In this document: positions 30,925 through 34,778 of the stretch, one piece after another
Layout of the letters: every line of letters begins with the position of its first letter
Numbering within the stretch: the first letter of the stretch is position 1
DNA from: the human T2T-CHM13v2.0 reference genome, Homo sapiens
Assembly: GCF_009914755.1 (NCBI RefSeq)
Contig: NC_060928.1
Length of the DNA stretch: 64,000 bases
Strand: one strand, 5' to 3'
Translations under genes and position numbers: made by a program
The notes under the pieces: generated by a model
The model's input: only the letters and a program-made list of their open reading frames with translations
The model's database searches: none
Told to the model about the DNA's origin: nothing

Positions 30925-31300
30925 GGCCAGGCACTGTGGTTCACGTCTATAATCCTAGCACTCTGAGAGGCCAAGGCAGGAGGATAACTTGAGGCCAGGA
31001 GTTCGAGACCAGCCTGGCCAACAATAATGAGACCCCATCTCTACAGAATATTAAAAAAAATTTTGGTCTGAGAGCTAGGAGCAAGAGCTTAGGGAAAGGA
31101 GGAATAAAAGGAGGTAGTTGGCTACCAACAGACATCTGAATTCTTAACCAATGAAGAGAAAAAATGTAAAAGTGGTCCCAGCCGCTTGGGAGAATGAGGC
31201 AGGAGGATTGCTTGAGCCCAGGAATTCAAGGCTGCAGTAAGCTGTGATTGTGCCACTGCACTTCAGCCTGGGAAACAGAGCAAGACCCTGAAAAAAAAAA
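30925..31300 (+). mobile_element. AluJ interrupted at the monomer junction by a 105-bp foreign insert
   Basis: Left monomer to ~31062, right monomer resumes GTCCCAGC at 31175; flanks AAAGGTAACTCC at both ends. Confidence 0.9.
31070..31174 (-). repeat. Inverted duplication 2, inserted copy of 34673-34778
   Basis: Reverse complement match; first 41 bp identical, about 8 substitutions and 1 indel overall. Confidence 0.93.
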
Positions 31301-32798
31301 GAGAGAGAGAGAGAAAGAAAAGAAAGGAAAAGAGAAAGGTAACTCCAGTTCCAGCACACAGTGCCACTGCAGGAGTGAGGAAGCCACGTGGGAGAATTAT
31401 TTTGTGGGAAAAGCTGAGGAATGCTTTTGCACATGTTGTATTGGAGGTACTGGTGCCCAAGTGGAGACAGCCTGAAGGCAGAGGGCGGCTTGAGTTGGGG
31501 CTAGAGATGGACACTTGGGAACCATGAGCACAGAAGAGACCACAAACATGTTGAGACAAGGGAAGCGGGCGGGAGAAAGAGCAGGGCATTGAGTCTTGAA
31601 CATTGCTCACACCTTCATTGATTTGGAAGAGACAAACTGCTGCTGTCAACCCAAGTTTGGGGTAGGCGGAAAAGTGGATACAGAGATTCTCTACCTCCTC
31701 TTACTTGGGAATGTAAGTCAAATGTGAGTTTCATAGCAGGAAGAGCGTGAAGTTGTTAAGTGCACAGTAGTCCATGAGAACAGATTTTCCCATCTTGAGC
31801 AGACTCTGCAGAGCCACAAACAATGCCGCCTTATGAGCTCTGGTCAGTCTGGTCATGGGATACCTGTGGGGATTTCTTTCCTGTCGGAGCAGTGGCTTCC
31901 GTGAGACTTGGCAAAGAGGCTGGTCTGAGGAATGCTTCTGGTTGTGGGTACATTCCAGCCCAGGGTGGTGTCCCAGACATTTTCCTTTTAATGAAGCCCC
32001 AGCTTTTTTCTCCCTTTTGCTTTTTTTTTTTTTTTTTTTTGTAATGAAAGGGTTGTTACAAGGGAAATACAATGGGGCCCTGGCTGTGTTTCATTAACTT
32101 TTAATTTAAGCTGTTAGTATGGAATTAGTTAGCAGACTTGTGAATCAATTAGCTAGCCAGTGGGATTCCATTTTAACAAGGGGAGCACTGTGCGCTCTCG
32201 GATGCTAGCTATGTGTGTGAATGCGGAGTTTAAGGAGCTTCGCTGTTTGTTCGACATCCGAAAGTGAATCACAGTCCTTGTTCCTGCCTCCTCTACTGGT
32301 TCCAAGTTCACTCGGCTAGAACATGCTGTGCATCACCCAACCCTTATCTTCTCTACAAATACAAATTTGGATTACTGAATAAATCCAGTGGAAATTCATT
32401 TTTCATGCTGATGAACTCAAAGACTTTCAGAGTTAAACCAAAACAATGCACTCGGAACTATAGTGAAACATTTGAACATTTACCCTTTGATCCAGAGTTT
32501 CCCCATATTCTGGGAAGCAGTAACTCCTGGGCAATTCTGCAGTCTTCTGAAAGTTCTATATAAGCTTAATTGTCCTTCCTCATTTGCAAACCCCACCTTG
32601 GGTTTGGGAAGATCTGACAGCTGCTGTCTGGGTTTGGCGTACTTACCCCGTTACTGGTTGAGAGGAGACCCAGTTAACAATTTCAGCCTCAAATTTAAAG
32701 TCCAGTCATCTCAAAGGAAGACAGTGACATAACAGGGAGGCCTAGCTGGCTTTAAAATAAAGGGAGAGGGGACAGAGTCAGTTCTAATAAACTGTAGA

Positions 32799-32853
32799 GA
32801 TATATATATATATATATATATATATATATATATATATATATATATATATATAT
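32799..32853. repeat. (TA)n microsatellite
   Basis: Perfect run of about 27 units. Confidence 0.95.
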
Positions 32854-33024
32854 AGCATTTTAAACCCAACTTGAAGAAAGTTGCTGAATTAGCATCAGAA
32901 AGCCACAGAAAAATGCATAGAGGGAGAGAGATAGGCTTGTGATTCACATTAATATTTTGGGCAATGGAATACAGTGTGACCAATAAAAATGATTCAAATA
33001 GTATGGTAGAAGTATACTACTGTC

Positions 33025-33652
33025 GGCCGGGCGCAGTGGCTCATGCCTGTAATCCCAACACTTTGAGAGGCCGAGGAGGGCGGATCATGTGGTCAAGAGA
33101 TTGAGACCAGCCTGGCCAACATGGTGAAACCCCGTCTCTACTAAAAATACAAAAATTAGCTGGGCGTGGTGGTGTGTGCCTGTAGTCCCAGGTATTTGGG
33201 AGGCTAAGGCAGGAGAATCGCTTGAACCCGGGAGGTAGAAGTTGCAGTGAGCCGAGATCGCACCACTGCACTCCAGCCTGGCAACAGAGTGAGACTCCGT
33301 CTCAAAGAAAAAAAAGAAGTATACTATTTTCATAGAAGTATACTTATTGGCATAGAAATATGTTTACCTGTCAGGTATGGTAGCCCATACCTGTAATCCT
33401 AGCACTTTGAGAGGCCTAGGCCAGAAGATCGCTTGAGCCCAGGAGTTTGAGACCAGCCTGGACAACACAGGAAAACCCTGTCTCTACAAAATAACTTTTT
33501 AAAAAAATTATCCAGGCATGGTGGTTCACACCTGTGGTCAGGAGGCTGAGGTGGGAGGATAGTTTGAGTGCAGGAGGTCGAGGCTGCAGTGAGCCATGAT
33601 TGAGCCACTGCATTCTAGCTTGGGCAACAGAGCGAGACCCTGTCTCAAAAAA
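33025..33652 (+). mobile_element. Two direct Alus (AluSc-like 33025-33315; AluJ-like 33370-33652)
   Basis: Consensus matches; first has TSD AGAAGTATACTA. Confidence 0.93.
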
Positions 33653-34445
33653 TACATATATGTTTATGAATATTGGAACATTTAAAAAGCAGTAAATATA
33701 CTATGAAGTACAATTGAATTTTAATTTCAGAATATTATATGCACACACATATACTGTCAGCAACAAAGAAAAAAACTGGATAGAAAATTATAACACTGTT
33801 ATTAATTAAAATTGTTATACAAAATTTGAGAACAACTTGGGGGTTATAAGAACATGAAAAGCTGTGGTTTGCAACCTTCATAGGGTCCCAAAGCAAGATG
33901 GAAACATCCCAATGGGAGGTTAACACTTGACAATCTTATAACAAGGTCTATATATCAAACTTATTATCTATCCATCTAGCTAGCTAGCTAGCTAACTTAC
34001 CTTCTATCCATCTGTCCAGCTATTATGTATATTCATGAAACTCATTTTTAAAACATGGGAGATAATGGCTCTAAATTTCAAAGAAATGTTTACACCTTGC
34101 CAGGAAGGTTTTCTTTTCCCAAGTCAGGGAGTGAAAGATGTCTGCTAATTCATTCGTGAACTTATTTACCTATTTTTTCCACAAGTATTTATTAAGAACC
34201 TGCCCATCAGCCAGGTAATCAGGAATCCTAAGATTAAATTATTAGAGTATTTTTCATTGTTCAAGTTTTCTCTTTTCAGTCACATTATGTGTGTGCCTCC
34301 TCTGAGCACAAGAGATCAAGGGAAACTACTTACAATCTTGATTTATAATAAGTGCGGTTTATCTGGAAGTAGTATTGAAGTTTTCTTACAATTGAGCATT
34401 TTTTCTAGAAGGGTGATGGTACTGCATTGGTAAGACTATCTAAAC

Positions 34446-34632
34446 CTGTGCTGTCAGCACAGTAGCCACTAACCACATGTGGCTATTTAAATTTAAGTAA
34501 AAATTCAGTTTCTCTATAACTGTAGCCACACTTCAATTGCTGAATACCCAGATGTGGCCAGTGGCTGTCATACTGAACAGTAGAGATATAGGACATTTAT
34601 GTCATCACAGAAAGTTCTCTTGGACAATGCTG
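34446..34632. mobile_element. MER3-like hAT-Charlie MITE
   Basis: TAGCCACTAACCACATGTGGCTATTTAAATTTAA...CAGAAAGTTCTCTTGGACAATGCTG; 8-bp TSD ATCTAAAC / GTCTAAAC. Confidence 0.85.
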
Positions 34633-34672
34633 GTCTAAACCTAATTGCTGAGAACACTTGTGTATAAAAAGG

Positions 34673-34778
34673 CACTTTTCACATTTTTTCTCTTCATTGC
34701 TTAAGAATTCAGAAGTTTGCTGATAGTCAACTACTTTCTTTTATTCCTCCTTTCCCTAAGCTCTTGCTCCTAGCTCTC
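34673..34778 (+). repeat. Inverted duplication 2, donor copy in unique sequence
   Basis: Reverse complement of 31070-31174. Confidence 0.93.

What the first reader, a model, noticed from the sequence alone, without database searches (positions are those of the whole stretch)
31063..34778. Inverted duplication 2: 105 bp of unique DNA pasted into an AluJ junction
Seen: the AluJ at 30925-31300 lacks the ~27 bp that normally start the right monomer; in their place are a few unassigned bases (~31063-31069) and the reverse complement of 34673-34778 (~91% identity, 41-bp perfect block). No TSD or A-tail. Direction is clear because the acceptor is a known consensus. Inference: templated repair of a break at the Alu A-rich linker using a template 3.5 kb away.
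Basis: partly seen in the sequence, partly recalled or inferred. Interest (0 to 1): 0.7.

Follow-up and report, generated by a model that had tools for sequence, protein, structure and literature searches.

The report
Nearby DNA patched into broken Alu
An old Alu repeat in an intron of the human PALLD gene carries a backwards 105-base copy of DNA from 3.5 kb away in place of about 25 of its own bases, likely the scar of an ancient repaired DNA break, and it is one more ordinary example of a class already catalogued by the hundreds.

Summary
Window 31070-31174 is the reverse complement of 34673-34778 (97 of 106 columns, 41-bp perfect block). Genome-wide searches find only these two copies. The copy sits inside one old J-type Alu whose two halves share a single 12-bp target-site duplication, so there is no inversion and the Alu is the acceptor. 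The Alu lost 24-27 nt. The left junction has 7 nt of filler, the right 0-3 nt of microhomology. The copy is about a third as old as the Alu (ratio 0.36, 95% 0.16-0.72), roughly 20-45 million years. This matches the 'repair-mediated duplications' of Pace et al. 2009 (824 human cases, donor under 5 kb). This event is not among their 52 chr4 rows, so it is a new member of a known class. The likely mechanism is break repair with one end primed on the nearby template, about 105 nt copied, then end-joining; a replication template switch cannot be excluded. No sign of function. One lead: seven such two-copy local pairs lie in 264 kb of PALLD, far denser than the catalogue, but no unrelated baseline was obtained.

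The parts
30910..30921 (+). 5' copy of the Alu's 12-bp target-site duplication
   Evidence: 2 exact matches in the window, 0 expected from shuffles
30925..31062 (+). Left monomer and A-rich linker of an old (J-type) Alu; acceptor, left side
   Evidence: groups with the 21 of 90 old-type local Alus; 11 of 101 non-CpG differences from their majority. The name AluJ is recalled, not from a library.
31063..31069 (+). 7-nt filler at the left junction, source not identified
   Evidence: source search found only chance-level matches
31070..31174 (-). Inserted inverted copy of 34673-34778
   Evidence: 97 of 106 columns identical
31172..31174 (+). Possible microhomology at the right junction (3 nt as the sequence stands; 0-2 nt if the Alu had the usual A at the third place)
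   Evidence: G there in 3 of 90 local Alus; chance of 3 nt or more is 0.06
31175..31334 (+). Remainder of the Alu right monomer (24-27 nt missing at its start) and its A/AG-rich tail
   Evidence: 12 of 99 non-CpG differences from the old-type majority
31335..31346 (+). 3' copy of the Alu's target-site duplication
34673..34778 (+). Donor (template): intronic DNA with no dispersed copies found, 3,498 bp from the acceptor

Best explanation
An old Alu holds an inverted 105-bp copy of a stretch 3.5 kb downstream and lacks 24-27 of its own bases, likely because a germline double-strand break in the Alu was repaired by copying that nearby stretch. Shown: the anatomy (one Alu, one TSD pair, deletion, filler, inverted two-copy insert) and that the copy is younger than the Alu. 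Inferred: the break was trimmed; a 3' end, more likely the right-hand one, annealed through 2-3 nt to the donor; about 105 nt were synthesised; the new strand was released and joined to the other end by end-joining, leaving 7 nt of filler. With right-end priming, primer and template are the same strand, so an inverted copy is what fold-back onto resected DNA or invasion of a nearby loop would give. This is the SDSA-like 'repair-mediated duplication' of Pace et al. 2009. It is probably a neutral scar.
For: A single Alu flanked by one TSD pair; both halves old-type and equally diverged, 11 of 101 and 12 of 99. Insert in two copies only. Deletion plus filler, no TSD or poly(A) at the insert. Pair divergence is 8 of 105 against about 21% expected if the copy were as old as the Alu: P about 1e-4, age ratio 0.36 (0.16-0.72). 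Size (105 bp) and distance (3.5 kb) fit Pace et al.: median 147 bp, donor under 5 kb, and all 39 proximal cases they inspected showed repair hallmarks. Break assays show hybrid synthesis plus end-joining: 59% of human insertions have one blunt and one microhomology end (passage); yeast fold-back insertions use Pol delta at one end and NHEJ or alt-EJ at the other (passages).
Against: The microhomology is weak: 3 nt arises by chance 6% of the time and needs a base that only 3 of 90 local Alus have, so the priming end is close to a guess. The 24-27-nt deletion exceeds the 1-15 nt range in Pace's inspected sample, though it passes their +/-30 filter. The yeast fold-backs are mostly 5-34 nt, one with a 41-nt loop, not a 3.5-kb loop. 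Differences are uneven: 7 of 9 in one 25-column window (P about 0.01) and a terminal 41-bp perfect run (P about 0.02), both post hoc. No orthologue was available to show the empty site.
Confidence: 0.62

Rival explanations
1. A replication template switch (FoSTeS/MMBIR type): a stalled nascent strand in the Alu jumped to the opposite-orientation template 3.5 kb away, copied about 105 nt and returned 24-27 nt further on, with no two-ended break.
For: It gives the same product. Polymorphic human inverted duplications (277 events, median 284 bp) mostly have 1-15 bp microhomology and are read as replicative (PMC12350158, passages).
Against: Two switches should leave microhomology at both junctions. 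The left junction has unassigned filler with no credible local source, which suits end-joining better. This is weak evidence after tens of millions of years of drift.
Confidence: 0.22
2. An RNA-templated patch: the left 3' end primed reverse transcription on nascent PALLD RNA, which would also give an inverted copy (class 2 templated sequence insertion).
For: Donor and acceptor lie in a + strand PALLD intron (annotation given with the task). Class 2 insertions have the same junction features and are proposed to come from RNA (PMC5110952, passages). Transcription promotes insertions in human cells (passages).
Against: Those donors are distant, not local. Only 278 of 824 donors in Pace et al. 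are intronic, and they saw no link to gene density. The only possible microhomology is at the right end, not the left.
Confidence: 0.08
3. The copy was made during Alu integration (reverse transcriptase jumped to local DNA and back) and was later partly homogenised with the donor by gene conversion.
For: Differences are clustered, with near-perfect ends and a diverged middle, as partial conversion could leave.
Against: Overall divergence is about a third of what the Alu's age predicts (P about 1e-4). It needs two conversion tracts within 105 bp of homology. The clustering test is post hoc, and a 41-bp run anywhere has P about 0.10.
Confidence: 0.04
4. The 105-mer is an unannotated dispersed repeat or small transposon nested in the Alu, with a second copy nearby by chance.
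For: The genome search is heuristic and says that absence is not proof.
Against: Two hits only, while the same search found 38 copies of the neighbouring old repeat. No TSD or tail. No Rfam match over the insert or donor; the 8 matches listed lie elsewhere, in the Alus, all below gathering score.
Confidence: 0.02
5. The two copies are the breakpoints of a 3.5-kb inversion made by staggered breaks.
For: Such inversions leave inverted duplicates at both ends (recalled).
Against: Both Alu halves sit in register on the same strand around the insert, and one TSD pair encloses them. No Alu piece lies at the donor flanks (best local score 6 of 24).
Confidence: 0.02

Closest known systems
Repair-mediated duplications (RDs), Pace, Sen, Batzer and Feschotte 2009, PMC2671141
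   Same: Interrupted transposable element as acceptor, a single donor within 5 kb, 50-619 bp, deletion/filler/microhomology junctions, no poly(A). AluJ acceptors with downstream donors at 2-3 kb are in their Table S1.
   Different: This event is not listed: PALLD occurs 0 times in Table S1 and none of the 52 chr4 rows of the <5 kb sheet lies at 169-170 Mb (the hg18 position of PALLD is recalled). The deletion is larger than in their inspected sample. They tabulate no orientation ('inverted' 0 times in the text, one opposite-orientation example).
'Doublets' of Thomas et al. 2004 (known here only through Pace's text; paper not held)
   Same: Short local paired duplications; the 41-bp exact block would be such a pair.
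   Different: From recall, doublets are mostly same-strand; this one is inverted. Not checked.
Class 2 templated sequence insertions (Onozawa and Aplan, PMC5110952)
   Same: No TSD or poly(A); microdeletion, microhomology and untemplated bases at the junctions.
   Different: Defined as polymorphic and copied from a distant region; here the donor is 3.5 kb away and the event is old.
Polymorphic inverted duplications in long-read human SV sets (PMC12350158)
   Same: Small inverted copy insertions with little homology at the junctions; described as the commonest inversion class.
   Different: Those are recent and segregating; this one is 8% diverged and presumably fixed (not tested).

Membership tests
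Repair-mediated duplication (Pace 2009) | One transposable element split into two same-orientation fragments of the same family | tested here: met
   Both halves on +, both old-type, one TSD pair. RepeatMasker's own names for the halves could not be checked.
Repair-mediated duplication (Pace 2009) | Fragments resume within +/-30 bp of each other in the consensus | tested here: met
   24-27 nt gap against local Alus; criterion
Repair-mediated duplication (Pace 2009) | Insert of 50 bp or more that is not a nested element | tested here: met
   109 bp (31063-31171); no dispersed copies; no Rfam match. No Dfam library was available.
Repair-mediated duplication (Pace 2009) | Exactly one other copy in the genome | tested here: met
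   2 of 2 hits are donor and acceptor; heuristic search, positive control
Repair-mediated duplication (Pace 2009) | Donor more than 50 bp and less than 5 kb away | tested here: met
   3,498 bp
Repair-mediated duplication (Pace 2009) | Deletion and/or filler at junctions, no poly(A/T) tail of 5 nt or more | tested here: met
   24-27-nt deletion, 7-nt filler, longest added T run 4 nt
Repair-mediated duplication (Pace 2009) | Microhomology of 2-9 nt at a junction (optional hallmark) | tested here: inconclusive
   0-3 nt on the right; chance 0.06 for 3 nt or more
Repair-mediated duplication (Pace 2009) | Empty orthologous site in an outgroup primate | not testable with these tools
   No other primate genome is held (no relatives)
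Class 1 templated insertion (L1-mediated) | TSD of 5 bp or more and a 10-40 nt poly(A) tail | tested here: not met
   Target deleted rather than duplicated; no tail; definition
Class 2 templated insertion | Donor in a distant genomic region | tested here: not met
   Donor 3.5 kb away
Class 2 templated insertion | Polymorphic among humans | not testable with these tools
   One assembly only; 8% divergence makes polymorphism unlikely (inference)

The most novel reading that the evidence does not exclude
This PALLD intron is a long-lived hotspot for local templated repair, biased to inverted copies: four inverted two-copy local duplications of different ages (about 82-96% identity) lie within 64 kb, and seven local pairs within 264 kb (about 27 per Mb, against 0.62 per Mb of repeat DNA in the 2009 catalogue).
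Probability: 0.12. Interest if true: 0.45.

Novelty: new member of a known kind. Interest (0 to 1): 0.15.

Why it matters
On its own, little: a neutral scar in an intron, with no overlap with the listed RefSeq elements. It is a clean, polarised example of germline templated repair, because the Alu's consensus and TSD fix direction and relative age. The wider count matters more. If local 100-450 bp duplications run at about 25 per Mb, the 2009 catalogue (824) undercounts them by over tenfold, and orientation, which it did not tabulate, could separate fold-back or same-strand priming from strand invasion. That could be tested cheaply on complete primate genomes.

Tried and rejected
Filler source: best matches were 9 nt at +858 bp and 6 nt inverted at -57 bp; a 6-of-7 match in the flanks arises by chance 22% of the time, so rejected. 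Extending the copy through the filler: only 4 of 7 bases match the donor's continuation, not accepted. Quasi-palindrome correction as the cause of the clustered differences: 4-5 of 8 substitutions lie in small stems in the acceptor; P 0.005-0.011 against random positions but 0.15-0.20 with positions fixed, so unsupported. RNA duplex function: the pair would form about -161 kcal/mol, while three neighbouring inverted Alu pairs give about -465 each, at 0.4-3.8 kb, so nothing special. Hotspot tests inside the 264 kb: 4 of 7 pairs in the window P 0.064, orientation split P 0.029, 5 of 7 within 60 kb P 0.12; all post hoc, none convincing. A baseline from unrelated chromosomes was planned but not obtained, so hotspot versus genome-wide rate stays open. 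Literature: PALLD + intron + Alu + inverted duplication gave 0 papers. Thomas et al. 2004 is not held. Supplements of the other papers, including bioRxiv ones, were not seen; SV call sets there could list related events.

Full report
Observation. Self-BLAST of the window shows 31070-31174 as the reverse complement of 34673-34778: 91.5% over 106 columns, E 1.8e-35. There are 8 substitutions and one 1-nt gap, and the first 41 columns are identical. Whole-genome searches return only these two places, by DNA search (2 of 2 candidates) and by a 25-mer with up to 2 mismatches (1 forward, 1 reverse, control 0). As a positive control, a 401-bp query across the donor found 38 dispersed copies of the old repeat at 34560-34640 among 40 scored matches, yet only the partner for the 105-mer. 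The search is heuristic, so very diverged copies are not excluded.

Anatomy. Against 25 intact Alus of the window, the left half mostly aligns to 31062, the end of the A-rich linker. The right half resumes at 31172 (24 nt lost) or 31175-31176 (27-28 lost). The three bases 31172-31174 fit both donor and Alu as the sequence stands, but only 3 of 90 local Alus have G at the third place, so true microhomology is 0-3 nt; 3 nt or more occurs by chance at 0.06. Seven bases (31063-31069) are unassigned and have no credible local source. An exact 12-bp TSD encloses the whole element at 30910-30921 and 31335-31346, the only two occurrences in 64 kb. The halves are therefore one insertion event, the Alu is the acceptor, and nothing between acceptor and donor needs to be inverted. 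The lost Alu piece is not at the donor flanks.

Age. Of 90 near-full Alus in the window plus 200 kb of flanks, 21 share old-type diagnostic bases with this one (the label AluJ is recalled). The acceptor Alu differs from their majority at 23 of 200 non-CpG positions (left 11 of 101, right 12 of 99). A copy as old as the Alu should differ from its donor by about 21%; it differs at 8 of 105, none CpG-explicable (P about 1e-4; age ratio 0.36, 95% 0.16-0.72). At 2.2e-9 per site per year that is 18 My (8.5-35); at 1.5e-9, 27 My (12.5-51). Among the 52 chr4 rows of Pace's table, 15 have 6.5-10.5% divergence: 11 are 'All primates' and 4 catarrhine (the single 'Mammal' row, 13%, was left out of the script). 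Roughly 20-45 My is a fair estimate.

Mechanism. Shown: deletion, filler, inverted single-donor insert, younger than the Alu. Inferred: a germline break in or next to the lost 24-27 nt, a 3' end annealing to the donor, about 105 nt of synthesis, release and end-joining. If the right end primed, primer and template are the same strand, and the copy comes out inverted, by fold-back onto resected DNA or invasion of a nearby loop. Hybrid synthesis plus end-joining is seen experimentally in human cells (10.1101/2022.09.30.509517, passages) and in yeast, there over much shorter loops (PMC11724301, passages). A replication template switch gives the same product and stays at about 0.2. An RNA-templated patch, a jump during Alu integration, a dispersed repeat and an inversion are each unlikely.

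Against the tidy reading. Differences are clustered: 7 of 9 within 25 columns (P 0.011), terminal perfect run P 0.019, any 41-bp run P 0.097. These are post hoc. A hairpin-correction explanation was not supported once positions were fixed. Partial gene conversion or error-prone synthesis cannot be excluded without orthologues.

Comparison. Pace et al. 2009 (PMC2671141; I read parts 1-6 of 8 of the text, part 1 of 15 of Table S1, and term searches of that table) used the same interrupted-repeat logic. They found 824 human duplications with the donor within 5 kb, median 147 bp, and all 39 inspected proximal cases had repair hallmarks and no poly(A). This event meets every criterion I could test. 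It is not in their table: PALLD 0 hits, and none of 52 chr4 rows on the <5 kb sheet lies near 169-170 Mb (hg18 position recalled). It fails class 1 templated insertion (no TSD, no tail) and differs from class 2 in having a local donor (PMC5110952, passages). Small inverted duplications are also common among segregating human SVs (PMC12350158, passages). A search for PALLD with intron, Alu and inverted duplication found 0 papers.

Context. In 264 kb (window plus 100 kb each side), 17 pairs had 40 bp or more of locally single-copy match on both sides. Seven lie within 5 kb, against 3.8% expected (P 1.5e-6). Four are inverted, all in the window; three are direct, all in the flanks. Each of the seven gave two copies genome-wide for the part searched (in one search the other 17 hits cover only the first 43 query bases). 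That is about 27 per Mb (62 in the window, 15 in the flanks) against 0.62 per Mb of repeat DNA in Pace's stricter pipeline. Tests for a hotspot inside the 264 kb were borderline and post hoc (P 0.064, 0.029, 0.12), and no unrelated baseline was obtained. The plain reading is that such events are commoner than the catalogue shows, as its authors say their count is minimal.

Function. No listed RefSeq element overlaps either copy. Rfam has no match over insert or donor. The possible RNA duplex (-161 kcal/mol) is far weaker than three neighbouring inverted Alu pairs (about -465).

Verdict. Interest 0.15.

Noticed in passing
window 6596-6775 and 8793-8968 (alignment runs on through the Alus, 6596-7055 / 8468-8968): Inverted local duplication: about 175 bp of two-copy DNA at 96% plus the 5' part of an Alu; similarity drops after the left monomer, as if one junction used Alu-Alu homology.
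   Followed up: partly
window 50072-50841 and 53485-54271: Inverted local duplication of roughly 450-500 bp (89-94%), 2.6-4 kb apart, including part of an LTR-like repeat; each copy is interrupted by its own Alu (50168-50478, with a 15-bp duplicated target, and 53538-53843).
   Followed up: partly
window 10892-11004 and 11159-11267: Older inverted pair (82%), only 154 bp apart, two copies genome-wide.
   Followed up: partly
L015:2233-2402 / 3820-3981; L022:7496-7600 / 8265-8376; L011:3579-3677 / 7672-7773: Three direct-orientation two-copy local pairs (79-86%) in the PALLD flanks, 0.7-4 kb apart.
   Followed up: partly
window 15660-16116: Alu with an internal tandem duplication of about 157 bp at 97% identity.
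   Followed up: no
window 40092-40837: Long self-complementary low-complexity tract that dominates the inverted-repeat list.
   Followed up: no
window 34440-34640: Old dispersed repeat about 30 bp from the donor and not copied; it looks like a MER3-type DNA transposon (name recalled); 38 dispersed hits for its 34560-34640 part.
   Followed up: partly
window 30904-30913 and 31162-31171: The 1-nt gap in the insert makes 10 bases identical to the Alu's 5' flank, in direct orientation (read); probably chance in A-rich DNA.
   Followed up: no
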